In this document: positions 5,254 to 57,100 of the stretch, piece after piece | Layout of the letters: each line of letters starts with the position of its first letter | How positions within the stretch are numbered: position 1 is the stretch's first letter | Assembly: GCF_003704095.1 (NCBI RefSeq) | Contig: NW_020845316.1 | Span: 248,001 to 312,000, forward strand | From: Pocillopora damicornis | Taxonomy: Eukaryota | DNA length: 64,000 bases | Direction of reading: 5' to 3' | Made by a program: the position numbers and the translations under genes | Notes under the pieces: model-generated | The model's database searches: none | What the model saw: the letters and a program-made list of their open reading frames with translations, nothing else | Told to the model about the DNA's origin: nothing

Positions 5254-8200
5254 TTAAGACTGCTCACAGCAGCATCTCTGTATTCTGAACCACCAGAAGG
5301 TCCACAGTTTGCGGGACTGCTTGTTAAATGCCAAGAAACACACAGTCGTCAGTGCAAAGAATGCAGTACTTAGGGATGATACCACAAATGCGTCAGAGAA
5401 AGTGTACTTTTCATATTCTGTTGGGAACAAAATTTGTAGATCAATGTCAGTCAACTGATAACAAGTTAGGAGTAATTAAATTTTGGACTAAGGGAAGGGT
5501 AGGAATGCAGTTGCTCAGTTAATGACATTCATCAAATTTACTTTCATCAATAACCTTACCCAAAGAATTTCATTTATGTTTTTAGTGTGTAGATCCAGTA
5601 TGCAGGTGAAAAAAAAAATAAATGTGAGTCTGTCTTATTGTTCACTTTTGATAGACTGGATAAAATTATAGAGCTCATAGTGTAGTTGTTACATACATGT
5701 ATTACTGAACAAATACCAAGTAAATGATACTCAAAGCACTTGATACTAACTTTTATGACACTTCTCTGGTGGGTAAAACATCAAGCAACGAAAGTACCGA
5801 TTTATATGGTGTTCCAGAAGGGCTGCATGTTGTTGTAAAAGGCAGATGGGAATATAAGTGAGAGTTACAATGGCTGCATATGCAAACATAAGAAACACCA
5901 GGCGCTGAACCAGTTTGTCCATTTTCTTTTTTCTTGATTTAGCTTGCTCACCAGCAACAGGGGAGATGTTGCGTAGCTGAAATGACCAAGAAGAAGGAGG
6001 TCACGATTAGCTAGCAGACATTTACTATCCATTTCCCAGCTGTGTGACAATTGAAATCTAATTTTATCAGATACAGGTAATTTAGTGTTAACAACTGGGT
6101 TGAAAACGTAAATTAGCCACCGTGAAGAGAAAAAAAGCTGACTTTTCGAGCGTTAGCCCTTCGTCAAAAAGATAGCTCTGACGAAGGGCTAACGCTCGAA
6201 ACGTCAGCTTTTTTACTCTTCATGGTGGCTAATTTACGTTTTCAACCCAGTCGTTAACACTAAATTACCTGCNNNNNNNNNNCACCGACGCAGCATCACA
6301 GTTTCTTTAGAAACTTACCCCTTTATTCATTTATCAGAAACAGATTTCTACCAGGACTAGACTTCCATTTACAATTAATTCTCTTGTGTTGTGTAAGGTG
6401 TTCACCAGGCCGTGGATGTAGAAGAATTCTACAATTATTAAGCAGAATTCCTCCACTAAATTTCAATGCCAAGAAACACACAGTCGTGGACTTTGGAGTA
6501 ACTTTAAGTTAAAAATGTAATGATTTACAATGTAAACCTCGTTAAAAATTATCTTCTAGCTGTGTAAATGGGCCTTCTAATAATGGCATTGAATAAAAAA
6601 CAACCATTAATTGCTCACCTACTAAAAACATTTGAACTGTTAGTTAAAAGTAAATAATTATTACCATGAAAAGTTTATAGACCACAAAAAACAAGCAGGT
6701 AACACCAACACCCAGTGCCAGCTCTGTGATAAATGTAGTTGTAAAATATCCAGTGTCTGTTGATCCAGGGAAGCAGAATTGCATATTTACAACAATATAA
6801 GGTGGTGATTCAGAGCCAAGTACAATGCCAACAGGAATGAAAGGAAGAAGCCAGCAAATTAAGGAATACACAATATGCTGTACTCTGTAATGATTTCCCT
6901 GGAGGTTTACCAGACTGTCAGAATAGATCATCTGAAAGAAAGTAGTAATATATTAACTCTTTGAATTCTAGAGGTGATGTGTGTAAGATGATGCCCATGG
7001 TGGTGTGTCTTTGTGTAGAGGTGCAGATATTATGGATGGATCCCTGAGAGGAGGGTGTTCTATGGCTGTAAGATTGTATATATAACCCTTGACAGAGGAC
7101 AGAGACTTCAATTTGTCTTGCAATTCCTGCTGCAGAAGCCATAACAAACCGGTTTAGGGACAGAGATACACCTAACCAGAGACAACTACAATGATCAAAT
7201 GAACAAAATGAAGTGATCAAATGCCAACTAAATGTCAGTCAACAGCTAGCCAGGAGCAGTATGTAGGCCTGAGGCTAATTAATTTATTCCCCTTGCTGCC
7301 CTTGGAATATGAACAATATGATATTGCTATAGTGTAACTACCTCAATCTCAACATCCCAACAGTTGGTTTCTTCCACCAACACAGATAAGTTGCCTTTCA
7401 GGGTCCAGTTGTTCAAAGGACAGATACTGCTATCTGTCCTTTAAATTGCTAAGTGTAAGCAAAAGATACTATGCTATCCACCAATAGAGATTTATCCAAT
7501 CCACCCTTCAAACAACCCAGGCCAGTATCATAGACATATTAATCCTTTCCCGCTTGAGATTGCCACATGGCACAAGATGCCATTGCATGCTCAATATTCA
7601 TTCATTTTTTCTGAAACTTTCAAAACCAAAAGGTCATTGAAAGATCTGCACATTGAAGGCATAAAATCATGGCTCCCTCTAATACAAGACTTGGTTTACC
7701 ACCCCTGCAACTTTTGGAACTTTTTGTCTTAGTACTGTTTTGGTTCAGGTGATATCTCACCACAATCAATGCTCTGAGAGCTGCAATTTAAACCATAGCT
7801 AAGTGGTATACCCTATATGTACGAGGCAAACAAACAATTTCAAGGTTTTTTATTTTTCACTTTGGACACTTCTCAGTCTTTTCAGTTACCTCCTCCAAAC
7901 CTGTTGGTGTCCTTTATAGCATACCCCCAAAAAATACCTATAAAATTATATATTATGCATGGTCTAGTGCTTCATTGGTCTCATTTCAAAAAAAATTTGG
8001 CATTTCCCTCAGGCAGGAAAGGGATAGACTGAAGAATGTTCACATTTGTAATCACTCTCAATAGTGATAAACAAACATATTTACAGATCATAACATTACA
8101 TGAAGATAGTGAATAAATCCCAGATAAAAACAGGATAAAAATTTGATTTGATAAAGATTTTAAGATTTTGAGACCTTAGTGCTGCTTCAATCACTAGAAG

Positions 8201-13977: not shown

Positions 13978-16222
13978 ATGGTGCAAGAGTTTATGATACT
14001 GAAGTGTTTTTCCTGTGCAACCTTTCAGGTTCACCAAGTAAGCAGATGTGACTTTTAGAGTCTTAGTTTTTTTCACTCCTTCAGTCCACAAGCTAGTAGT
14101 TACATTAGACTATCTTTTTTTTTTTTTTTTTTTTGGCTGTGATTGTTATTCTGAAGGAAAGCAGAAAAAGTAGACACATTTCTAAATCCAAAGGTTGGGT
14201 AAAACTTTTGCAGTGCATTTGGTTCGACTGTACGAATCTATATTTTACTGAAAATTTGTCAGTAGTACAAGGGAAGACTTAATACCCTAGTCTTCAGTGC
14301 ACCGGAATCCAGCCCTTTTTCGGGGTCATAAGGGGGTGTTCTTGGAGAGAAACTCACAGTAACTCTCAGATTTCCTCTCTTGACACAGCTGTATACAATA
14401 AAAAGGGTTGTGACAAGTTGTCAGGGAGTAGGCTGCAATCAATGAACAAGTATTCAGTGTAGGGGAACTGGGAATACTCCTTGTCACTTCACAATGTTAC
14501 AGTCTAAGCATTTTCAGAGGTCTGGTATGAGTTGTGCAAGTCTTTTTTTTTTGTAACCATCAACAGGTTAAGAAAAGCAACAAGTGGGTTTGCAAAGTAT
14601 GTGGAGAAAAGCAATCAATTAAAAAAGTTTATGCTCAAGGGACTGGTCTTGACTGCCGTAAGCATGTGCAGAAATTAAATTTGAAACAAGGAGAAGCACA
14701 GGAGGCAAGAGATTTGATATCCTGCAATGATGAAAATCCTAGTTCTTGTGACTTCGTTGAAAATACCCCATTGGCTGGCAATGTTAAGATAAACCAAGGT
14801 ACAAATTGCAACAGCCAGGAAGGTTTTTCCAAAGGAGTAAGCAAATGGGAGAAGTTCTTAGAGATCAGTTCTACTGACCATGATGGTAATTAATGGTTTA
14901 TTTGATCATGCAGTCTGATTGTACAGGTGAAGGTAGCCCTGAAATGGATTGTTAAGCCTAAGGCTGTCACTTTCACCCATAAACATTCAATTTCAGGACT
15001 TTCTCTTCATGGATGATCAGACCACAAGAACTACTGTTTTAAGTACTTCTAGGTTTAAACCTTATACTGGAAGATTTATCCATTGAACCTCATTTAAATG
15101 CTTCATTAGTGGTGAGACTTCAACCAAGGTCACCCAAAATTTATTCACTATTCACATGATAGGTTCAAACAACAAATTGAACTTTATGTCATTTTCTGTC
15201 TGGTTGCAGGTATGAAAGTTTGAAAGAGATTTTTTGACATTAAAAAAATCCTTAAAATTTACATTTTGACACATTCTCTAATTGCTTTTTCAGGGGGTGA
15301 TTTGGTCACTGGTAGAAGAACATATAATATAAAAACAAATAAGCCATTAGTTGTAGAATGTATTTGTGTTTTATTTAAATTGTCAAGGAGATGGTGATTA
15401 ATTCAGATATTTAATGTGTGATGCTCCGAGTGGAGACTATAGAAATTGTGAAATCCACGTTGTTGTTGTTATTGTTATTGGTTTGTGGAATGCCAACCAA
15501 TGCTTTGTTGTGCTAAACATACTTTTTTTGAATTTTTTTTTTATACATAAGATTTAGAGGAATTGGACAGTGATGATATAACAACAGAAAGGGATTTGTT
15601 TGATAAAGCATATTCAAGAAGAAAGAGAAAGTCATCATGGCAACATTGCAAATCAGGAACTGGCTTCCATGGAAAAAGATCCAAAATAAGTGCAAATGAA
15701 GATAGTGTCAGTACATGCTCAGGGTTCAAAACCTCTTTTCCAAATACTCCTTTACATAACTTGACATCAAACCAAGTTGATGAATTTCAGTCCTATGGCA
15801 AACAAGCACAAGCCAATGAGGATTTGGAGTCAAATATCAAAAATAACCCATACAAATGTAACATTTATTTTGCAAAGGCTACCAGAAATCCCTCCCCAAC
15901 AATGAAAAGGATGAACTCAAGTGCTTTGGTTGACCAGAAACGGAAAGCAATACATTCATCAACGTGGAATAGGTTCATGTCTAGTTCCTCATCACAAACT
16001 GACATGCATGAAACATGCTCAGAAAATAACTCTCTTTCCTTTGAGCCACACAGAAATAATTGTCAAATTGATAGTGAAAGCTATCATAACCAAGGTAATA
16101 ATTTTATGAAATCTACTGCAGCTATGAATGCAGCAGATAATCAGTCATCGTCTTCTCAGTTTGTTGAAGATTTCTTTAAGGTGGATGATGAATTAGATGA
16201 TAACTGGTGGAACTCACTGTAA
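13978..16222 (+). CDS. MRNIP: MRN complex-interacting protein (C5orf45 homolog), about 349 aa
   Basis: Exons 13978-14037, 14567-14885, 15552-16222. The N-terminal Zn-ribbon [58 protein letters not shown] matches the MRNIP signature; SKWEKFL motif also present. Confidence 0.9.
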
Positions 16223-25228: not shown

Positions 25229-28200
25229 CTAAATTTCCTTAGCACAACAAGCAGATATAGCTCTTTTAGTTATGAACTCATCTTCCATCAACCAGAGGTG
25301 AAAACGAACCTGTTGCAAGAAATTTCTAAAGCTGCTGTGCTTAGCAAGGGGAAAGTCTCTCTCCATTCGTACATCATCATGAAAAGCTTCCTTGTTTTCT
25401 TTGCCTGATCGAAATGGGCCATATGCATGCACTTGTAGCTCATATTTTGCAACATAGTGCCTCAACACGATGTAGTGTTTTAGCCAGTCATCAGCACAGT
25501 AACGGATTGTGCGGGGGTCAGTTAGTATTTTGCGTTGTCTGTCAGTAAGCGTGGACTCCATCTCTTGTAAGGTTTTCTTTAGTTTTCCTGTTACAAGAAT
25601 TAAACAAGTACAAATTTATTGATACTTTCATTTCTATTACATTGTATTTCATTGTAAGAGCACAGTAAAGGATCAGTTTCTTAAAATTTATGACAAAAAG
25701 AAATCTTGTAGTTTGTTGAAAATTGACTAGCAGTAGCATTCTCATATTTAAAAACTAGAGAAAGTGTAAATTGTATGGTAAAAAAATTTTTTCCCAGTTA
25801 TATTTACCATAGTACATTTAGTGCTTACACAAGTTGGTATGAAGAATTGTAAGGGTTTTTTTTATGCTAGACTGCTATTGCCAGGGTAAGAGTTTGTACT
25901 GTTTAGTGAGGAAGGTGGCTAACCAAATGATGGAGTTTTTTTCAGCCCTTATTTACCTTCAGACATTGTCTCTGTCTCAATTTCAAACTCGCAGTTAAAT
26001 TACTATAGGGATAAAGCCTTCCAGTGCATGATTTTCCAGCAAATATACTACACTTCTTGATTGTTAAATGAACTTCAACAGTTTTGTTCTTATTCTAATG
26101 ATTTACTATAAATAACTCATTCTTACTTATGTTGTAACCAATGTTATAATTGTTCTCCAGAGCTTTACCACTTGTACCAGTTGTAGATAGTGAGACTTCT
26201 GCAAAAAGTTAAAGAAAAAACAAGTGATTTAGGGGAAAAAGCAAAATACATTATGCAACACATATTCTATTAGTGGAGACCAGATAGAGAACTTGTCTTA
26301 TTAAAATTTTGAGAAGAAATGTACATGTAAACCATATAACTTTACTCTAATTAAACTGTAAAGTACATCTTTGATGTATTTTAATTCCTATTAAGGAATT
26401 CTCTATAGATAGGAAAAGGTGAAGAACCATTCATGCTAACCTCTGGCAAGAGGACCTACGAGAAACTTTCTTGTAGTTGTGGAGTGATTATGAATGTAAA
26501 AGTTTGTCTTTATCTCAGCTAATTTAAAAGTCACTGTGTTTAATAGTTAAGGGTACCCATTTTGTCATTTGGTGTTGCCAAAGAAGTAGAATTTCTTGTA
26601 GTTACTTGTAAGTTTTCAAAGAAATTGTCTTGTGCTGTTTTGGCAGACCAGTGAAACATGTAGTTGACCATCAACTTGAGTTACTTTAGTTGCTCAAAAG
26701 CCTAGTTATCCAAAATTCACAAAGGCAGTTTGTTAACCTTTATCAGTTATGCATTTAACTTTTTCATTTTTGTGGAGCTCTGTAAACGTGAGAGTGCATG
26801 TATGGTCAGGGAAAGAGAGACTTGATGTCTTCAAGGGTGTGAAGCTGACTGGATTGTCTGTTGGTATTTTGTAAGATAAAGGAAATGTTATTTTTGAGAA
26901 GTACTCTGTACATCACCTCTTAGATTTTAAGAAAAAGCTTTGGTTGTTACTGTAGCATTTTCCAAAAATAGTTATTTTCCAGTTTAGATTATGTTTCTCT
27001 TTGTCATTATTCTCACCATGTTTCAGTTTGACATTTCATTGATGTCAAAAGGCAACATTTGAGTAAGTAGAAAACTTTTCAGCTGTTTTTGTTGTCACAC
27101 ATATATTGTATACCTACCAGGTATCACTGAATCTTTGGGAAGATAATCAGCCCCACCTGTGCCAATGTAATCCAATGCTGGGTCCCCTGTTGAGGTCAGA
27201 ATAACCTATCATTTATATTTATTAGTCACATTGGTCACATTGATCACATGATCAATTTTGAGTCAAGATGAGATTTATGGGTTGGGATAAATCAATGAAT
27301 TTTGACCTCTCCCCCTCCCTCCTTGCCCATGGGTTCACAGTTCGTTGAGAATTAATATTTGATCTTGTCAGTTTGAGAATTTTTGTTTCAGGAAGGCATG
27401 ATGGGAGGGGAATCCAAATCTCCTGGCTGAACCCCTTCCTCTCAATCTGCCACTGAGCATAAATGAGGGTAGCCAAATTAAGACTCAAAGTTTGAAAGTT
27501 TTCAAATAAACTGTTGAGTCTCTTTACTACAGCACTTACTTTCCATACTCGATAACAAACGCTTACCATATTGTAATGATTTTTTAACCAATATCTTCAA
27601 TACTTTCCATTCCTTTGGACTATATCCAAGAGTGAAACAAACTCGTAGGATCAATAGGGGAAGAAGCCTTGGTGATGCCAGAAGCTGTTAGAAAAGTACA
27701 CCCGGTTAAAAAGAGAAATTAGAGTGAGAAATAAAGGCTTAATGACTCTGAGTGCACTTAAATGTGGGATGTAAGGTTGGGTTTCAATTCAGTTGGCTGG
27801 GTCACTGTGTCAAGTTACTACCACCTTACTAGCCTGCAGAACAGGTGAAATTTGTTTACAATTTTCAGGCGAATGGAGACAAACAGGGTTTAATTTTTTT
27901 TTTTTGCACTCCTCTTAAACCTGACTCACTTTATGCTCAGCTAGCGTTTGCCTCTGTTGGCCTGAGAATTGTCAAAAGTAATTACATTTTTTTGCTGGGT
28001 ATCACCTCACCAAACAAATTGCAACAACATAATCCAAGTGTGATTACCTCATCAATGGTTCCGAAGATAGCTTGTGCCATGAAAATCAATAATGTCTTGG
28101 GAAAACCATAAGTCTTACATATTATATCACAACTCATCCAGTGGTTGGTCTGATTAACACGTGGTGGAATCTTGGCTGTAAGGAGTTGATTTTAAACTTT

Positions 28201-31200
28201 TAAAAATTGACTAGTTATCAGTGGGAATAATACTTCATTATTGAAGCTTTCCAAATGTGATAAGTTTGCTACCCAATTTATGACTGTTTCAGGTTGCTCT
28301 CATTCACCCTCTCATATTTCTTTGTGAGAGGGTACAGAGGTTTCAAGCACTTTCTCAATTTCAAACTGACAGCTTGTTTGTTTTAATTATTTCAAGAATA
28401 GTTTGAATGAAATAGTGAAGTCTACCAAATTAGGCCTACCACACAACAAATTACAGCTAGTGAGCAAGCTCTAACTGGTGCTGTGGCATGACTGGGGCAG
28501 CAATAAGTGATGTAAAAGCTGACAAGAGAAGGAGGGCTGGGATTAAAATGTTTTTGCTACTCAACATGCTATGAGCACTGATGGTGGCCTATTCTCTGGC
28601 TACCTAAGTAATTATGCCACTTACGTTCAAAGCTATGACTGATTGCTTGACAGAGGCACAAAACAAATGTCCACAAGACAGGATTGAAGTACCAGTGCAT
28701 CAGATTGAATGCATTATAGTATTTCACATGGTTTGACAGGTGATTTGTATGATTCCAACAAGTTTCACAGTTCAAGCTCTGCAGTGCAGAATTCTTCACA
28801 GCCATTTGAAAAGTGATGTTTGCAAGAATGTACATGACAGCCAAAGGCACAATCATGAAAAACTAAAAGAGCAAATTAAAGGAAAATTATTATTTTGGTA
28901 GGGGAAATTAAGAGGGATTTAGACAATGGTATAAATGTGGTTAAAAAATTAATGCAACACATACAATGACAGAAGTTTTGTGATTCCTGATGGATTTTAA
29001 AAATGATCTTGCCCCTGAGATTTATGATTATAAACTAAATGAGGCATGATGCTTCCAGTCACAGGGCCAGTTGGGCTAACCTTTAACACTAACATTGGTA
29101 TTCATGTTCTCCATACTGTACTCTGTACATTAACTAAGGTGCTGAAAAGGAGAATTTGTCTAAGAATCAAGAGTTTCTTTAGTTAATTTCCTCTCTTCTC
29201 ATCACATTAATGTGTGATTCAGTGGTTATATTGTAAGGAGAAATTAGATGCTAGTCACTCTTAATGGTTTAGGGTTAACACTCGAGAACCAGAAGCTGTA
29301 TGGTGTCCACGCTCTTCCTATTGGGGAGGAACAAAGGAGCAAAGACCTGACATGTGAGGGCTGCAAAATCAAGCCTAGTTTAAGAACTCCAAAAAAAGGT
29401 CAACACTTTGGCATCTTTAGATTAATGAATAACCCCAACATTAAATTTCATTTACATCGAAGTCCACTGAAGAGAATATCAATTGTTGATATTCTCTTGT
29501 GAAGGTTTAATTCTATCACTTCAAGGATCTCATCAGGTATTCTTTTTACAGTCTGCCATATGATTTTTATGATGTTAGTTTGGAGAATTTGATATTGGAT
29601 TGACTCTTAATCCCTTAATTGATATTTTTCTTTATTCTCATCACTTGTTGGTTTGACACTTTTAATATTGTAAGCAAAAATTATATCTTGGTGAGTCATG
29701 GGAGTTAAAGGGTTAATGAATTTTATGAAGACTACATACCCCCATACAAGGTGTTCTTTGGATAAGACCCCACAAACAATACCAGAAGAGAAGAAACAAA
29801 GCAAAGACAGCAGCTCCATTCCAAACAAGCACTTCAGTGTTGGCTAATGTGTAGCAGTCACGATCAAATCTCCACTGGGCGAAGAAACATAGCATCATCA
29901 TAACAATCAGTGGCTAGGAGAAAAAAGGTATGAACAGAAATGTCACTCTTTTTAAATGGGCTCATTGAAAGTTATACACAACTTAAAACCTGAAAACCTT
30001 GCCAAAACAATGTTAACTCCCTTCAAGACCTCTTGGATAGGTGACGCTTAGTAACCTAACACCAGGAACTTAGAAAAAAAATACAAGAAGTTCAGTTCAA
30101 TGGATCCCACTGGGAAAATGCTTAATTTCCTTTGCTGCCTTTGTGATCATACAGTTTCTGTTGTTTGCAAAGTGACACATATGGTCTATTGATTAAATGA
30201 TAACCATGTAGCCATAAAAATTGGGTGAGTAGCAACCATGCGCCCATGATTTGGGCATGTAAAGACCTAATCTTGATTTTTCCACAAGCTTGTGGAAAAT
30301 AATACTGGCCTTGACTTCTTGGAAAAAACAACAAAAACAGAGGTGCTCAATTCATACTGGCCAATACTGGGTCTTAAATTACACAGAATTATTTACACCA
30401 GAATTTTGGTAATGTGATTACCATGTATTCATAATTAGAGTGTATGTGATAACCATAATTACAGCTACAATTAAACCAAACCTAGAATTACAATCAAAGT
30501 AAGCTAGAGCCATTCCACAGTTACCAGTTAATGAAAAGAGGAAGGGCACTACATATTGTTGGAGTCTGTAGGACAAGTCCATATTAATCTAATGCAAGAC
30601 ACTATACTTTTTTCAAACCTACCATGAATAAATAGTGTCCAAGCTTTGTTTTAAATCTTAGGTGAAATATTTCAACAAGGTACAGTTGATAGTACAGACT
30701 TAAACCAGTTACATTGGTCAATGGTGCCACAAAGAACATAGCCAAAAATCTTGTGAACCAGTTTTCTGAACGCAGGATTGGATCACAGCAAGGCCGCCAA
30801 CAAGACATCTCCCAGGAATCTGGCCAGTAACGTTTGGCACGTGGTGGTTGCTATGAAAACGAAGGAGATCTGTAAGTAAGTTTAAAGATATACTGTTTTT
30901 ATACTGACTTGATCTTAAATTGATCTGTAACTCTCTTATTGATATGACATTTTCAATCATGAAATATGGTTGAGGTATATGAACTAGACAAAAGAGAAAG
31001 AGAAAGAAGATGATGACTTAATCAATTCAGTAAGTTTTCTTTTCTGCAGGATCACTGATGTAAAATTAAGAGCAAGATGTTTTGGTCACTTAAATGTCAA
31101 AAGAATCTGCAAGACTTATTGTCAGGTAAATATCTAAAGAAAACATTTGTGAGGCACAATGCAAAAAATAGAATAGGAGAGACCAATTTTCCTATTCTAT

Positions 31201-33133
31201 TTACAAACATGACGCTATTGACATTGCTGATCCTAGCAGTATGCAGGATGCATGTCATATGAACTTTGTGATAGACCTCACTCACTGAAGAGTCTCTGTG
31301 GCTCAGTGGTAAAGTATTGGAGCACGGAATCTGAAGGTCTGAGGTTCAATTCTTTATGGGAACTCAGAATTTTTTCTTTCTCCCTCCCTCGTGACAAGAC
31401 AACAAACATCTTTCTCCACATACAGAGAAGTTCTGATATTTACCCCTAGCAGAGGGTCCAGTTCATGTGTTGCACTTAAATGCTCTGAACTACCACTTGT
31501 TTCAGCTCCAGCATCTTCTTGATCCATTGGTCCCTCTATAACTGCAGATTCTCTGGCTCTACGTCGTGCCATGGAACCATATGTCCCTTCAACCAGTCTT
31601 GTTGATGTACGACACTGAATATCATCTCTTATTTCCCCGTTATGTACTATTAATTCATCCCATATTGGATCTGAAAATTTCATAATTTACAGTTTTTTGT
31701 ATGTTCTACCCATTAATTGCAAAAGTAGTTGCCATGTGCTACACAAATAGTAGCTGTGATGGCTGAAATCTACACTTCTTCTTTCATCTTTCGAGGTCAA
31801 AGTAGCTGGATAGTAATAGGAACAAGGAGAATTACATTCATTGTCAATTTCAGAAAACAAATTCCTCCACACCTCATCACTATACTTGTAATAACAGCCA
31901 AAGTTTTTTGATAGCTGATGGGTACTTACGATTGTAGACTCTGTGACTGGCATCATATTCATGATCTTGTTCAGTAACTACGCCCAAATACTGACCCTCA
32001 CTGTCACAGTATGGTATAGTAAATTTCACCAACCCACCAGGCTCTCTTAGAATGTCATCTGTCATTAAAAGTTTTACTTCTGAGCGGTAACTTGTACAAT
32101 TTTCCTCTTTTGGTTTTATCCTTTTCAAGAAAGCTTGGAGTCCTGCAAACTTTATCTGCAACAAAAATTTTAAGAATCACTTTACCAGTGAGCAGGGGAA
32201 GCTACAAATTCTAAAATAACAAAGTTATCATGGTTATAATATTGCTGATGATAATAATGATACATGAAGGTGGGGTGCCTAAGATAAAACAGGCTAGCTC
32301 ATCCTAAGTGGGTTAATGTGGAGGAATTAAGCCTAGACCATTTTTTCACAAATCAGATTAAATATGTCAATGGATAGTGATTTAAGTGTGTAGTCTACCA
32401 CTGAGTTAATGTAAAATAATATGATAAAAACATAAACCTGCCTTCTTGTTAGGTTTTGAATGAGTAGTAGATTTAAACTAAAAATAGAAAATAATTATTT
32501 TCTCTTGATTTCCATGCATGACAGCTGACTCGTGTCTTGCTTTTATTAACCAACACCCAATAGAAATCTTCAGCTTTTAATCATAAAAAAAGAAATGAAA
32601 TCACTTTTCAACCTTAAATGTTGCACTCATGTCATAGAAAGTAATGGTTTATGGTAGAAAAGGTATCATAGTCTATGGGGTCATAAAATACCATTTGGAT
32701 GTCATCCTATTAAAGAAGCTGTTGGACGATTACTGCCTGTTGGTTGGGTGTTTTAGGTTTTCTCCTTGTGGGTATATTAATGACTAGAATTTTATTGGAA
32801 GACCACCTTCAACATGTAGTAAAATTTTTGTTAACTCTAGAACACCAAGTTTGACAAAAACTTCTTAAGTCTCACCTCATATTGTGTATTCTCCTCACCA
32901 TGGTGACGCTGATCAGGCCACTGCAATCCTGCAGTAGCCCCACCTAAAGAATGAACCTGATTTCTGCGAGGGAGTGGCTTAAAATTGTTGCCAAAATCAA
33001 CAAAAAGGACAATTTTATCTCCAATATCAGCAAAGTTGGGAAAGTGATTTCCTGATGAACACATTCGTACCAGTGGCTTGTTCCGATGTTCAGGAGGTTG
33101 GTGGTGTGGTGCAGTGCAGCAGCAACTTCCCAT
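25229..33133 (-). CDS. Uncharacterised protein of about 684 aa: N-terminal acylation motif, unknown soluble domain, Mpo1/DUF962-like membrane domain
   Basis: Exons 33133-32876, 32155-31930, 31670-31444, 30850-30623, 29913-29740, 28862-28625, 28175-28048, 27684-27567, 27186-27118, 26198-26169, 25587-25229, all GT-AG and in phase. Motifs MGSCCC, YYQLYLVEIFHLRFKTKLGHYLFMPLI, QAISHSFEPKIPP, LLASPRLLPLLILRVCFTLGYSP, GDPALDYIGTGG. Confidence 0.8.
31198..31420 (+). mobile_element. tRNA-derived SINE-like repeat (intronic)
   Basis: GTGGCTCAGTGGTAAAG...GAGGTTCAATTC A/B boxes. A reverse-complement copy lies at 48560-48840. Confidence 0.7.
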
Positions 33134-36029: not shown

Positions 36030-37430
36030 TTACTCAAGACATGAGCTGTCCCCTTCGCTATCAGTTTGATTTTCACTGCTTGAACACAAGTCGCTTCTAG
36101 ACCACTCCCCTTTTTCTAGCCTTAGCATATCAGACAAGCGGCTAATGCGCCTCTCGGCAGAATCAAGTTCCAGCTCAAACCCATGTCTCTGAATGAGCAC
36201 CTTCGCTTCTTCAGCCTTCTCGATAGCCATAGCATTGTTTTGTTCAAAACAGTACTGATCAGACCGCAAAAGCAGCAGTTTTATTCTTGTCCCTAACGCC
36301 ATTTTACCATCAGCAGTTCTAGATTCAGTTAAATCAAGGTGCCTTTTTGCTTTCATAACGTCTTCTTTGCAGATGTGGGTGTTGTTGTTCGCTGCCTTAG
36401 AGCAGGACTTTAGGAGCAGAGCCGCCATTTTGACGTTAATGTATTCTCGGTTGATTACAGCGTACTGACATGCCAGCTCATAAGATTTGTACGCTGTAGT
36501 TTTTCGGGTGTCCCGAGTTATATTCGCTGCAGGTAAAGAGTTAAGCAGTGCGCCATAACTTTGATAGAGTTCCGCTTTGTCTTCATGGGAATCCTGAAGT
36601 TCAAGAGCTTTTTGTGCCTCTTGCACGCATCTCATAGCGTTTCCAAATTTGCTCTGACGCTTGTACACCGCCGTCAAAAGATTCAAGGCTCGTCCGATCA
36701 GAATTCCCGGGTTTTTCAACTGCGGCTCCAGTTTCAGTACAAATTTTAGTATTCTTTTGGCATCTTTACCATTGTTCTGAAAAAAAAGGGCCATTGCGCG
36801 TTCAATCTTTAAACTCACTTCCATGTCAACATCTTCGGGCGACCTTCTTGCCAACTGTTCTCGTATTATTTGCTCATGTAGCTCAAACTCCCCTTTATCT
36901 TGTAGATAGTGTAGTTTTGTTATAAGTAAGATATAACCGGAAGTATTCATACATCCGCGCTTTGGAATGACTGGCATTGGAGAATGGACAGAGCTAGGTT
37001 TGCCTAATATTGAGTAGACTTGTGTTCCTTGTCTGTCTTCTTCTATCTCTTGAGTTTTTGTGACTGAATCGCTTTCTTCATCAGATGAAGTGGGCAGATT
37101 CTTGCTATCACATTTACAAGTCGGTACTTGACACGGTGTGCTGTTAGAACCATTCTGGATTATGGAAAAACCTGAAACCTTGATACGTAGAACTTTCTGG
37201 GATTGTCTTATCTCTTGATCCTGATCTGTTTCTATTGCTGCACCTTTCCTATGATGTGATTCACGTTTTCCATGAACGATTCCTCCCTCCAAGAGAGGGT
37301 GGATCTTCCTGTCATAAGAAAGAGAACAAACCGGATCTCCATTCTGAACTTCATGAGTGAAATCTTCAGGAATATCCTCGTCTAATTCTGTGAGAAAAAC
37401 TCCACAGGAAACGCTTTTCTGAGTGGTCAT
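36030..37430 (-). CDS. Uncharacterised helical-repeat (TPR-like) protein, copy 1, 466 aa
   Basis: Single-exon ORF with an acidic, disordered N-terminus, then TPR-like helices (GRALNLLTAVYKRQSKFGNAMRCVQEAQKAL; KAELYQSYGALL). In-frame stop upstream of the ATG and a 5'UTR acceptor at about 37560. Confidence 0.85.
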   Translation of the reverse strand: MTTQKSVSCGVFLTELDEDIPEDFTHEVQNGDPVCSLSYDRKIHPLLEGGIVHGKRESHHRKGAAIETDQDQEIRQSQKVLRIKVSGFSIIQNGSNSTPCQVPTCKCDSKNLPTSSDEESDSVTKTQEIEEDRQGTQVYSILGKPSSVHSPMPVIPKRGCMNTSGYILLITKLHYLQDKGEFELHEQIIREQLARRSPEDVDMEVSLKIERAMALFFQNNGKDAKRILKFVLKLEPQLKNPGILIGRALNLLTAVYKRQSKFGNAMRCVQEAQKALELQDSHEDKAELYQSYGALLNSLPAANITRDTRKTTAYKSYELACQYAVINREYINVKMAALLLKSCSKAANNNTHICKEDVMKAKRHLDLTESRTADGKMALGTRIKLLLLRSDQYCFEQNNAMAIEKAEEAKVLIQRHGFELELDSAERRISRLSDMLRLEKGEWSRSDLCSSSENQTDSEGDSSCLE

Positions 37431-52766: not shown

Positions 52767-54128
52767 TTACTCAAGAGATGAGCTGTCCCCTTCTCTATCA
52801 GTTTGATCTTCACTGCTTGAACACGATTCACTGCTGAGCCATTCCCCTTTTTCTAGCCCTTGCATATCAGACAAGCGCCTAATGCGCTTCTCGGCAGAAT
52901 CAAGTTCCAGCTCAAACCTATGTGCGAGGATGAGCCCCATCGCTTCTTCAGCCTTCTCGACAGCCATAGCAATGTTTTGTTCAAAGTAGTGCTGATCAGA
53001 TCGCAAAAGAAGATACTTTATTCTTGTCCCTAATCCCATGTTACCATCAGCCGTTCTAGATTCAGTTAAATCAAGGTGCCTTTTTGCTTTCATAACGTCC
53101 TCTTTGCAGATGTCGGTGTCGTTGTTCGCTACCTCGAAGCAGGGCTTTAGGAGCAGATCTGCCATTTTGGTGTTGATGTATCCATTGTTGTTTACAGAGT
53201 ACTGACATGCCCGCTGATAAGACTTGTACGCTTCAGTTTTTCGGGTGTCCCGAGCACTGTTCGGTGCAGGTAAAGAGTCAAGCAGTGCGCCACGAGTGTA
53301 ACACAGTTCTCCTTTATCGTCGTGAGAATCCTGAAGTTCAAGAGCTTTTTGTGCCTTTTCCACGCATCGCATAGCATTTCCAAATTTTCTCTGACGCTTG
53401 TACACCGCCGTCAAAAGATTCAAGGCTCGTCCCGTCAGAATTCCCGGGTTTTTCATCTCCAGTTCCCGTTTAAGTACAGATTTTAGTATTGTTTTGGTAC
53501 CTTTAAGATTATTCTGGAAATAAAAGGCCTTTGCGCGCTCAATCTCTAAAATTGCTTTCATGTCAACATCTTCAGGCGACCTTCTTGCCAACTCTTCTTG
53601 TATTATTCGTTCATGTGCCTCAAACGTCCCGTTATCTTGTAGATCGTGTAGCTTTGTCATGAGTGAGATATAACGGGAATTATTCATACATCCGCGCTTT
53701 GGAATGACTGGCATTGGAGAATGGACAGAGCTGAGTTGAACCAATATTAAGTCGACTTGGATGCCTTGACTGTCTTCTTCTATGTCCAGGGGTTTTATGA
53801 CTGAGTCGTTTTCTTCATCAGAAGAAGTGAGACAACTCTTGTTACGACATTTACAAGTCTGCACATGACACAGTGTGTTGTTAGAACCATTCTGGATTAT
53901 GGGAAAACCTGAAGCCTTAATAGATAGAACACTCTGGGATCGTCTCATCTCTTGATCCTGATCTGTTGCTTTTGCTGCATGTTTCCTATGATGTGACTTA
54001 AATTTCCCATGGACAATTCCTCCAGTAACTGGTTCTCGAGTCTGAACTTCATCGGTGTAAGCTTCAGGAACATCCTCGACTAATTCTACAAGAAAAACTT
54101 CACAGGAAAGACTATCCTGAGTAGTCAT
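52767..54128 (-). CDS. TPR-like protein copy 3, 453 aa
   Basis: Intact paralog of 36030-37430 with a 13-codon in-frame deletion near the N-terminus. Confidence 0.85.
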   Translation of the reverse strand: MTTQDSLSCEVFLVELVEDVPEAYTDEVQTREPVTGGIVHGKFKSHHRKHAAKATDQDQEMRRSQSVLSIKASGFPIIQNGSNNTLCHVQTCKCRNKSCLTSSDEENDSVIKPLDIEEDSQGIQVDLILVQLSSVHSPMPVIPKRGCMNNSRYISLMTKLHDLQDNGTFEAHERIIQEELARRSPEDVDMKAILEIERAKAFYFQNNLKGTKTILKSVLKRELEMKNPGILTGRALNLLTAVYKRQRKFGNAMRCVEKAQKALELQDSHDDKGELCYTRGALLDSLPAPNSARDTRKTEAYKSYQRACQYSVNNNGYINTKMADLLLKPCFEVANNDTDICKEDVMKAKRHLDLTESRTADGNMGLGTRIKYLLLRSDQHYFEQNIAMAVEKAEEAMGLILAHRFELELDSAEKRIRRLSDMQGLEKGEWLSSESCSSSEDQTDREGDSSSLE

Positions 54129-57100
54129 TGTTTAGGCGATTGAAAGTAAGTGAACCAGTAACTGAAACGTTCCTAATGTGGGCATGACTTGATGATTACC
54201 GTTATTCAAAGTAATAGAACGTTTGAAGACAATTTAGGTGCACCTGAAAATAAAACAAAAAGACAAAAACAGGATTTAAACAATGGATGGATTATAATAC
54301 GAAACCTAATGAAAAACATTCAATATGCTTGGGAAATCAAGAAACCCGCTCGGCATACTTACATAAGTCGCACCTAATGGACAGAAAAAACTGAGCATGA
54401 TAGAACGCGTTAAAATTTCATCGAGGGTCCATGTTATACCAAAGTCAAGTAACCACAACTGCCACCACACCAAGGAAAGGAAAAATATCTCAGCTGGAAT
54501 CTATAGGCGTACACAGGCACCCTGCGTGTTTTCTCGACCAATCATAGGGCGAATTAGAGCAAAACTGGTCCAAGCCGAATTACTTTCGACCCTCAAATTT
54601 CAGACGGATTTAAGGTTCGAAGCAATTGCGTTTCTGGGCTTTTTCATCATGATCCTTAAACAAGGGAAAGATTGAACCTTTGGAACGTAGCTAGGTTTTG
54701 AAACTTCTCAAAGAACTTTTAAAAATTAAACATTTTTCTCATAGGTCAAAGTGTCCGGAAATAGAATCAATAGAAGTTTGGTTATATTCCTGTACTAAGT
54801 CTCGTATATAACAATACTAAAAACTCTCAGTGTGACTACCTGAAAAAGAAAAATGTAAGGAAAGTGCAAAGTCTCGGGAAATTTTATTAAATTTTTCATG
54901 GTCCCAGGAAAAGCTCTAGTACGGAAGCACATTTTAAAAAGCCAATCATTGACTTAGGGTAGCTTCGTTGTTTATTAGCGATATTTATGCAGGCTGGCCC
55001 AGTTCAGCTTCAAGCTGGTTTAAATAGGGGCCTGCTTAGGACATACTGAGTAAAACAAAGTGTACATAGAAATATAAAATACAAAAGGAGCCGACAACAC
55101 AAATTACAATTTACACATAAGATAGACAATAATAAAATGTACAATGTTACATTAAAAAGTACATTACATCAATAACTGAAATGGAGTTTGAGAAGTTACG
55201 TAGAGAAGTTGTGTTTCGTAGTTTGCTAGTCAGAGCATTCCAAGCCTTTGCACCTTTGTAACGAAGGGAACCTTGATATTTAGATGGTTTTAGCCAGGGG
55301 GCAATCGTAAAAGGTCTCTATATCTGGTATTGTTAACCTCCCTTCAGAGCGAGAGTTACGAGAGGAAACCTAGTTACTTTTTCTCAAAGTTTTCCCTCAA
55401 GATATTTACTAGTTCGGCTGACGATATAATACGCCTTCTGCTATGGGTATCAAGTTTAAGACTTGAGTCGTCACCATGACAACATTACTTCGAATGACAG
55501 GCAGAGGTATTCCAATTTTTGGCCTAGATACCTCAATATCTTTACTTTCCCATGGTGCTATGTCTTCATTCTTTGTCATATTATACAACACTTTGACAGT
55601 TTTACAATATTCTCTAATTTGTCATTTTTCTTAATGTATTCGATTAGCTCTGGCAGATTTTAACAAAATAGGCTATTTGATAGGAACTGTATGTGGTTAT
55701 GACTGAGCAAATTTTTCAAAAAATTTACCGAAGGAAACGCGATAAACCTTATTAGAAAGCCTTTCTTTTTTTCTTATTCCCAAAACATTACGCCATAAAA
55801 TAACATTTCATTAAGATCGATATTTTGAATCTGTTGTCGATTCTGTTGCCATTTTGCAATCTTTCTCTCGGTGTTTCCTTTTTGTTTACCTCTTTTTCAG
55901 GCGTAGAGGGCCAATGAATATCGTGGGTATGGTTACTAGAAACTCTAGAGATCATTCGATAAAAGTTGTATTTTGTTATACTCTTTTAATACACGTTTTT
56001 AGATAATAATCGCGCGGTCGCATCGAGCTGCCATGTTAGTTCACAGCCAGCCCAAGCTCCAGCTGTGAGATAGTCAGAGAGTTATGGCGAAATTATAAGA
56101 GCTTGTATGGGAATAATTACGACTGCTCTTAGGAATAAAAAAATACAGTCAGATTCTCAATTTGAAATGAAAAATAAATGTTGGTCATCGGGGATTGAAG
56201 AAAATATGTTCCATTATATTCTCTGCGTATTCCACCAATTATGACAAAATTTTCATGTTTATTGCTTCCTTGTTGTCAAGAGTCGGTCATAAATAATTCA
56301 TCCCTTAATTAAAACACGAAACGAAGCCATATAGATTGAAGCGGTCTTTTCACGTCATGATGGAGATCGTTCCTATAAAACTTCATGATGCTATGATATC
56401 CAGAAATAAAGAAAATTCGTTTTTGCCTTTATCTGTTGCCTTTAAAGGTATACATAACGGAAGTTGTGGAAACCGAAAATCCGTCATGGTAATATTCTTC
56501 TCGTTAAGTGAAAGCATCAGTGGAAACGTCTCAGAACAATTTAAGGAAGGAATAAGGAATACTATGGCAAAATTATCTAAAGATGAAGATGACAGTTTTG
56601 TTTTCATGTCAAAAGTGATGCTCATACTAGAGCTCAGTAGTATGAAGGTTACCGTCGAGTAGTTGAATAAAAGCTGTCAACTGGACCTTAAAACTCCGAC
56701 AATGTGGACCAAAGAACTATAACCTGATGAACATGTAAAACATATCCTACCGTGGTTTGACAGGTACATGTAATGCCCGTTTAACTGAGGCCAAAACTGT
56801 AAAACATCCTTCTAGGTGAAACTAAAAGACTTTCTGCTTCGTCAAAACAAAGCTTACGCACAGCCTCGTTCTCAGGGAACTCACTTTCAGGAAAATCAAG
56901 AGACCTGGGCCTAAGAGAGCTTGAAGTTCGTCGTCAAGCACACAAAGCTCGACTTCAATGCATATGATGTGTGGCGCTTATTAGTTGTGGATGGTCCTTA
57001 TCTATAATTTCCACTATCAAAAGACAAACGGCATTGAGGATTGGCGATGCCATGAACATTGCGGTGTATACTGAAATGGGAGCTATTCATCATAAACTCC

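What the first reader, a model, noticed from the sequence alone, without database searches (positions are those of the whole stretch)
27118..30850. Animal Mpo1/DUF962-like His-motif membrane enzyme fused to a lipid-anchored unknown domain
Seen: exons 4-9 encode QLYLVEIFH..KLGHYLFMPLI, several TM helices, QAISHSFEPKIPP and LLASP..FTLGYSP. These parallel yeast Mpo1 (QLGFYKFYHH..IHSIFVPTI, QFVGHGVFEKRRP, LVLAP..FKLGFMP), with all three His positions present, followed by a GDPALDYIGTGG extension. The protein begins MGSCCC (myristoylation/palmitoylation-like) and has about 240 aa of unrecognised N-terminal and about 130 aa of C-terminal sequence. Known: Mpo1 is a small Fe(II)-dependent 2-hydroxy fatty acid alpha-oxidation dioxygenase of fungi, plants, protists and bacteria, and is not found in mammals. 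Inference: an undescribed multidomain lipid-modifying enzyme in a cnidarian, from ancient retention or old horizontal transfer (the gene is fully intronised).
Basis: partly seen in the sequence, partly recalled or inferred. Interest (0 to 1): 0.7.

Follow-up and report, generated by a model that had tools for sequence, protein, structure and literature searches.

The report
Unnamed Mpo1-related membrane enzyme in corals
This coral gene is real, spliced and single-copy, and belongs to an unnamed family of membrane proteins, also found in amoebae, bivalves and some bacteria, that keeps the three histidines of the yeast Mpo1 enzyme family and so likely uses iron to oxidise or trim membrane fatty acids, a chemistry untested in these animals.

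Summary
An 11-exon minus-strand gene (33133-25229) encodes 698 aa, and all 10 introns appear as joints in 4 of 4 RNA runs. Its core (aa ~241-548) is not Pfam Mpo1-like by threshold. It belongs to an unnamed family (334 clusters at 50% identity) that is homologous to long-type Mpo1/DUF962 proteins by profile comparison (probability 97%, score 76 against at most 39 in 80 shuffles), with all three His aligned and near-invariant (140, 139, 140 of 140). The family adds its own invariant Gln, Glu, Trp, PPR motif and glycine-rich tail; its confident model matched no solved fold. Members occur in anthozoans, amoebozoans, bivalves (another subfamily) and scattered bacteria, where START lipid-binding domains are fused or adjacent. 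The coral copy groups with eukaryotic, not bacterial, proteins. The N-terminal domain is a generic Ig-like sandwich seen only in anthozoans; the C-terminal helical domain is shared with an amoeba; the MG-CC lipid-anchor motif is hexacoral-only. Best reading: an iron-dependent lipid oxygenase working like Mpo1; activity and substrate untested. The scan earlier noted canonical Mpo1 genes in other animals (unchecked here), but not this family.

The parts
32876..33133 (-). Exon 1 (aa 1-86): start codon, MG-plus-Cys cluster (likely myristoylation/palmitoylation), first half of the Ig-like domain
   Evidence: the anchor is inferred from the motif
31930..32155 (-). Exon 2 (aa 87-161): second half of the Ig-like beta-sandwich domain
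31444..31670 (-). Exon 3 (aa 162-237): helix, then a poorly conserved, low-confidence linker
30623..30850 (-). Exon 4 (aa 238-313): start of the core; conserved Pro280 and Gln292; His300 (30664-30662) and His309 (30637-30635)
29740..29913 (-). Exon 5 (aa 314-371): predicted transmembrane helices 1-2
28625..28862 (-). Exon 6 (aa 372-450): predicted TM3, a loop with two Cys and an N-glycosylation sequon (likely luminal), TM4 ending in His447 (28637-28635) and Glu450
28048..28175 (-). Exon 7 (aa 451-493): family-specific PPR motif, Trp463, Glu493
27567..27684 (-). Exon 8 (aa 494-532): long helix ending in the LGY motif shared with long-type Mpo1-like proteins
27118..27186 (-). Exon 9 (aa 533-555): glycine-rich G-D/N-PA-x-D-Y/F-x-G-x-GG tail shared with bacterial members
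26127..26198 (-). Exon 10 (aa 556-579): linker
25229..25587 (-). Exon 11 coding part (aa 580-698, stop): all-helical C-terminal domain, shared with a Balamuthia protein and P0014
24800..25228 (-). 3' untranslated region (extends at least to the edge of the stretch laid)
   Evidence: RNA contigs run unbroken from exon 11 to 24800

Best explanation
The gene encodes a multi-pass membrane protein of an unnamed sister family of Mpo1/DUF962, and it is likely an iron(II)- and oxygen-dependent enzyme that oxidises the carboxyl end of a fatty acyl substrate, most probably shortening 2-hydroxy fatty acids by one carbon as yeast Mpo1 does. Shown: gene structure, splicing, homology, His invariance, distribution. 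Inferred: His300 and His309 at the start of the first membrane helix and His447 at the end of the fourth meet on the cytosolic face and bind Fe(II); the conserved Glu450, Glu493 and Gln292 and the folded-back glycine-rich tail complete the pocket; the acyl chain enters from the bilayer; the substrate comes from turnover of hydroxy-acyl sphingolipids. The Ig-like domain, the lipid anchor and the C-terminal helical domain are read as accessory (targeting or partner binding), because most bacterial members lack them. History: an old eukaryotic gene of ultimately bacterial type, kept by anthozoans since before the hexacoral-octocoral split, or taken early from an amoeba-like eukaryote.
For: Profile match to long-type PF06127 proteins: probability 97.0, all three His aligned. 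Controls: reversed alignment 17.6, best of 80 shuffles 39.0, His-masked still 58.5, real 76.0. Motif spacing is shared: H-x8-H-x4-P in 120 of 120 canonical proteins and H-x8-H-x4-[PTA] in 123 of 140 family cores; H-x2-E-x2-4-P in 136 of 140. PF06127 is the recurrent weak hit, 24 of 103 at E<=0.1. His conservation is 140, 139 and 140 of 140. Among the top 40 covarying pairs are 308-446 and 301-451, next to the His residues, and 289-540 and 305-537, which tie the tail to the His region (low power). Lipid context in bacteria: START or START-superfamily fusions in 2 of 103; START genes adjacent at L011, L028 and L070; L070 also has a fatty-acid cis/trans isomerase and a P450; FadL-type transporter near L069, fatty-acid hydroxylase at L029, MMPL/sterol-sensing at L004. 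Mpo1 is an Fe(II) dioxygenase that alpha-oxidises 2-OH fatty acids in one step (PMC10398889, PMC9624242; passages read). Coral host cells hold hydroxy-acyl sphingolipids (PMC11258240, passages). Confident helical models of the core.
Against: No activity data. The coral protein alone does not match a canonical Mpo1-like HMM (E 0.09) or Pfam. The Gln four residues before the third His, present in 119 of 120 canonical proteins, is kept in only 71-72 of 140 family members, though the coral has it. The family has extra invariant polar residues and about 100 more core residues, so its chemistry may differ. Two myxobacterial genomes hold both this family and short PF06127 proteins, which hints at different jobs. 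The coral genome has TPP-enzyme matches on 3 contigs (not verified as HACL1/2), so the usual animal route of alpha-oxidation is probably present. No gene neighbourhood is conserved across 27 bacterial loci, most neighbours are unrelated to lipids, and no chance control was computed for the START association. Metal-site geometry was not measured. That Mpo1's three His are catalytic is recalled from Mori 2020, which was not held.
Confidence: 0.45

Rival explanations
1. Same His-bound iron site, different lipid reaction: hydroxylation, desaturation, decarboxylation or oxidative cleavage of another lipid (for example a sphingoid, ether or branched chain), perhaps at a two-metal site built with the extra Glu residues.
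For: Family-specific near-invariant Gln292 (137 of 140), Glu493 (136), Trp463 (138), PPR motif and tail; coexistence with PF06127 proteins in 2 of 5 genomes checked; likely HACL-type genes in the coral; neighbours include a P450, an isomerase and START proteins.
Against: No desaturase- or hydroxylase-type His boxes are seen in the alignment; the canonical motif spacing is kept intact.
Confidence: 0.32
2. A Zn-dependent intramembrane lipid hydrolase, working like the three-His alkaline ceramidase/CREST enzymes (family features recalled).
For: Three invariant His, a Ser before the third His (119 of 140) and conserved acidic residues; lipid-related neighbours.
Against: The only homology found is to PF06127, whose one characterised member is an Fe dioxygenase; the predicted layout is four membrane helices plus a long helix, not a seven-helix bundle.
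Confidence: 0.12
3. Not an enzyme in corals: a metal- or lipid-sensing or scaffolding membrane protein that signals through the added Ig-like and helical domains.
For: Added cytosolic domains and a lipid-anchor motif in hexacorals.
Against: The coral core keeps every family-invariant residue and is the best conserved region (for example 137 of 307 identical to the octocoral, against 30 of 120 and 36 of 120 for the end domains); bacterial members work as the core alone.
Confidence: 0.11

Closest known systems
Yeast Mpo1 (YGL010W) and long-type Pfam PF06127 (Mpo1-like, DUF962) proteins
   Same: H-x8-H-x4-P and Q-x3-H-x2-E-x3-P motifs in the same order and spacing, hydrophobic helices between them, terminal LGY-like helix end; profile-level homology.
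   Different: Core of about 300 aa against 150-180; extra conserved N-terminal helices, PPR-x6-W, G-x2-D/N-E-x2-ASPRLLP and the glycine-rich tail; below the Pfam cut-off; the coral adds an Ig-like domain, a ~35-aa loop and a helical C-terminal domain; separate branch in trees. No yeast sequence was compared directly.
Uncharacterised anthozoan orthologues (Stylophora PFX33785.1, Oculina LOC144650355, Dendronephthya LOC114532723)
   Same: Same three-domain layout; 83%, 58% and 34% identity; one clade, support 100/99.
   Different: Named only 'hypothetical' or 'uncharacterized'. The Stylophora model lacks 21 residues holding the invariant Trp. Octocoral-type sequences lack the MG-CC start.
Amoebozoan members (Heterostelium PPL_00342, Balamuthia KAL6066369.1)
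   Same: Same core; nearest named non-animal relatives; the Balamuthia protein shares the C-terminal helical domain (E 1.8e-6 among 225 targets).
   Different: No Ig-like domain detected; 34-36% identity over the core.
HACL1/HACL2 alpha-oxidation route of mammals
   Same: Same net outcome as proposed: a 2-hydroxy fatty acid shortened by one carbon (PMC10398889, passages).
   Different: Three-step route through acyl-CoA and a lyase; unrelated protein family.

Membership tests
Pfam PF06127 Mpo1-like (DUF962) | Score at or above the curated cut-off of 24 bits | tested here: not met
   0 of 11 exons; 0 hits for P0006, P0007, P0003 and 18.1 bits for P0008; 1 of 103 family members at 24.1 bits. The joined coral protein scored E 0.09 against a home-built canonical HMM.
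Mpo1/DUF962 superfamily (homology) | Significant profile-profile match over the His-bearing domain | tested here: met
   Probability 97, score 76, 156 columns; controls at most 39, His-masked 58.
Mpo1/DUF962 superfamily (homology) | Three conserved His in H-x8-H and H-x2-E motifs | tested here: met
   His300, His309, His447 and Glu450; 140, 139, 140 and 136 of 140 cores; aligned with the invariant His of A4.
Mpo1/DUF962 superfamily (homology) | His residues cluster into one metal site | tested here: inconclusive
   No coordinates were available. Covariation ranks 308-446 at 18 and 301-451 at 21 of all pairs, with effective depth 125 for 261 columns; the predicted topology puts all three on one face (inference).
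Mpo1 (enzyme) | Fe(II)/O2-dependent alpha-oxidation of 2-hydroxy fatty acids | not testable with these tools
   Needs complementation or an in vitro assay.
Mpo1 (enzyme) | Small single-domain protein | tested here: not met
   698 aa, three domains; top canonical hits are 154-201 aa.
CREST/alkaline ceramidase-type Zn hydrolases | Seven-helix fold with SxxxH and HxxxH motifs (recalled) | tested here: inconclusive
   Motif spacing differs; the fold searches were uninformative on this point.
Immunoglobulin-like beta-sandwich (N-terminal domain) | Structural match over most of the domain | tested here: met
   Model residues 8-149 align to many Ig-like domains, best Z 6.5, rmsd 3.3, 90 residues; generic, no particular family.
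N-myristoylated and palmitoylated proteins | Gly2 followed by a Cys cluster, modified in vivo | tested here: inconclusive
   Motif present in the window protein, Stylophora, Oculina, Desmophyllum and Actinostola; absent in P0007, P0011 and P0013. The modification itself is not testable here.

The most novel reading that the evidence does not exclude
An undescribed family of membrane iron enzymes, with a fold that matched no solved structure, carries out a lipid oxidation not yet known in animals. Corals and anemones have kept it for over 500 million years, bivalves hold a second subfamily, and it would give these animals an amoeba-like, one-step route for remodelling hydroxylated sphingolipids, their own or their algal symbionts'.
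Probability: 0.3. Interest if true: 0.75.

Novelty: new variant of a known kind. Interest (0 to 1): 0.5.

Why it matters
It assigns a testable biochemical hypothesis to a conserved, single-copy, uncharacterised anthozoan gene and defines an unmodelled sister family of Mpo1 that spans bacteria, amoebae, corals and bivalves. Only one reaction is known for this superfamily and no solved structure matched, so the compact bacterial members are good targets for a new membrane metalloenzyme fold. If the coral enzyme trims hydroxy fatty acids, it adds a non-mammalian branch to sphingolipid turnover in reef builders, whose host and symbiont membranes both carry hydroxy-acyl sphingolipids (PMC11258240).

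Tried and rejected
Artefact or contamination: rejected; spliced in 4 of 4 runs, next to an MRNIP gene, tree follows anthozoan relationships. Recent transfer from the coral-associated bacterium Ca. Sororendozoicomonas, which carries a member (L012): rejected; it groups with Aureispira and myxobacteria (AU p 1e-89; the groups were named after seeing trees). One origin for coral and bivalve copies: rejected without P0139 (p 1.4e-7), not rejected with it (p 0.06). No information from: PDB sequence searches; Foldseek on the core model against PDB and BFVD (best E 1.9 and 0.47); VIA-align (best Z 3.4; no ceramidase, desaturase or other membrane oxygenase listed, which does not exclude them); ESM Atlas with two homologues; NCBIfam, 0 of 114. 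Paralogues: none found with P0007 (10 of 10 matches at this locus), P0113 or P0187; no PF06127 match over the cut-off in the genome; these are 'not found with these queries'. Conserved bacterial operon: none in 27 of the 31 loci examined. Literature: 0 papers for six accession or locus names; papers for DUF962/PF06127/YGL010W/Mpo1-like, none on this family by listing; none of the top 15 cnidarian-term papers mentioned Mpo1. Seki 2019 and Mori 2020 were not held; only their titles were seen in reference lists. Supplements were not searched and could list these genes. No complex prediction was run, as no binding is claimed.
Full report
Observation. Joining 11 GT-AG exons from 33133 to 25229 gives one frame of 698 aa, with an in-frame stop upstream of the ATG. 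All 10 introns show as joints in 4 of 4 RNA runs laid (4 of the 20 listed; 3 studies), and contigs continue into a 3' UTR. The gene is single-copy by the query used. The closest named protein is from Stylophora pistillata, 83% identical over the full length, so the window is probably from a related stony coral (inference).

Anatomy. An AlphaFold model of the 60%-identical proxy P0007 (mean pLDDT 77, core mostly above 90) shows three parts. Residues ~18-162 form an Ig-like beta-sandwich (best Z 6.5, generic). Residues ~241-548 form a helical membrane core. Residues ~576-698 form a helical domain. Reading the helices with a cytosolic N-terminus puts His300 and His309 before and in the first membrane helix and His447 at the end of the fourth, on the same face; the Cys- and sequon-bearing loops then lie on the other face (inference). 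The core is the best conserved part.

Family. A profile of 10 first hits found 334 clusters at E<=0.001 among 1.84 billion representatives; the best 150 were listed, most of them stand-alone proteins of 250-330 aa. Of 187 sequences examined, 140 covered the core. In these the three His are present in 140, 139 and 140, Glu450 and Glu493 in 136 each, Gln292 in 137 and Trp463 in 138. No NCBIfam model matches (0 of 114). Pfam PF06127 is the recurrent weak hit, in 24 of 103 scanned, with 1 above the cut-off (the 103 were picked from the 150 listed, mostly leaving out fragments).

Relation to Mpo1. I collected true PF06127 proteins from genomes and aligned 8 long-type ones. Family against long-type profile gives probability 97 and score 76, with all three His aligned. 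Reversal gives 17.6, 40 block shuffles at most 39.0, 40 column shuffles at most 21.7, and masking the His columns still 58.5. The homology is therefore real but distant: the coral protein alone scores only E 0.09 against a canonical HMM. With Mpo1-like proteins as outgroup the family is a separate branch, and three tail-less myxobacterial proteins lie near its base on long branches. A model of a compact member (pLDDT 96.6, pTM 0.92) matched nothing in PDB or BFVD, which does not prove a new fold.

Distribution and history. Named members: five anthozoans (Stylophora, Oculina, Desmophyllum, Actinostola, Dendronephthya), four amoebozoans (Stygamoeba, Heterostelium, Balamuthia, Amoeba proteus) and two bivalves in a subfamily with a different N-terminal region (Sinanodonta, Mytilus). 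In bacteria, one motif found 31 GTDB loci, mainly myxobacteria and actinomycetes, plus Aureispira, a spirochaete and Ca. Sororendozoicomonas; 9 of 201 genomes from the phylum of a myxobacterial genome have a match. Most eukaryote-type rows are unnamed. Anthozoans form a clade (100/99) that splits into hexacorals and octocorals, inside a eukaryote-type group (87/82) and apart from the bacterial clade (99/95) (54 of 140 rows). The exact sister is unresolved: FastTree joins them to the Balamuthia/Heterostelium group at 92, and IQ-TREE leaves it open. Holding anthozoans with bacteria is rejected (p 0.005). The C-terminal domain is shared with Balamuthia and P0014, while the Ig-like domain was found only in anthozoan-clade proteins among 225 targets. 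So ancient retention with wide loss, or an early transfer from an amoeba-like eukaryote, fits better than bacterial transfer; these two cannot be told apart here.

Function. Yeast Mpo1 alpha-oxidises 2-hydroxy fatty acids in one Fe(II)-dependent step, while mammals use HACL lyases (PMC10398889 and PMC9624242, passages). That its three His bind the iron is recalled from Mori 2020, which I could not read. Bacterial context points to lipids: START-type fusions in P0070 and P0085; START genes beside L011, L028 and L070, the last between a fatty-acid cis/trans isomerase and a P450; a FadL-type transporter, a fatty-acid hydroxylase and an MMPL protein beside others. Most neighbours are unrelated, no order is conserved, and no chance control was run. 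Covariation weakly ties the His segments to each other and to the tail. Coral host cells contain hydroxy-acyl CAEP and glucosylceramides (PMC11258240, passages), and the genome has fatty-acid-hydroxylase-family matches. Against the exact Mpo1 reaction: extra invariant residues, only half-conservation of the canonical Gln, coexistence with PF06127 proteins and likely HACL-type genes (unverified). I put 0.45 on Mpo1-like alpha-oxidation, 0.32 on another iron-dependent lipid reaction, 0.12 on a Zn hydrolase and 0.11 on a non-catalytic role.

Novelty. The genes are annotated only as hypothetical or uncharacterised, and my searches found no paper on them. Earlier scan notes hold no look-alike of this protein, but one reports canonical Mpo1 genes in springtails, fungus gnats and copepods (not checked here), which lessens the surprise of an Mpo1-like gene in an animal. 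Verdict: a real gene and a new variant of a known kind, an unnamed sister family of Mpo1; interest 0.5.

Noticed in passing
L012 (Ca. Sororendozoicomonas aggregata) 6986-7894: A coral-associated gammaproteobacterium carries a bacterial-type member of the same family, followed by short RING-finger ORFs; it is not the source of the coral gene.
   Followed up: partly
P0113 (Sinanodonta), P0127 (Mytilus), P0116, P0135, P0137, P0128, P0149: A second, bivalve-containing subfamily with a different unrecognised N-terminal region of about 140 aa and a degenerate tail motif.
   Followed up: partly
L070 2322-9971 (G150:C4): Same-strand run: fatty-acid cis/trans isomerase, divergent family member, double-START protein, cytochrome P450; a candidate lipid-modification operon.
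   Followed up: partly
window 29170-29720 (intron 5): High-copy repeat: RNA contig depth hundreds of times that of the exons, with two short direct repeats about 438 nt apart.
   Followed up: no
window 31200-31430 (intron 3): Second repeat with tRNA-like A- and B-box sequence, likely a SINE (inference, not called by ARAGORN).
   Followed up: no
window 36030-37457, 41997-43400, 52767-54131 (minus strand): Three copies of a ~450-475 aa intron-poor gene with no Pfam match, the middle one interrupted by a stop, with reverse-transcriptase fragments between copies.
   Followed up: no
window 14531-16222 (plus strand): MRN-interacting protein (MRNIP) gene upstream in window coordinates.
   Followed up: no
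L018 21-4526 (Actinoplanes): An ORF with a Tc toxin TcA domain lies two genes upstream of the family member; seen in this one locus.
   Followed up: no
P0159 (Stylophora PFX33785.1): The public model lacks 21 residues of the exon 7 region, including the invariant Trp; probably a gene-model error, as close relative P0020 has them.
   Followed up: no
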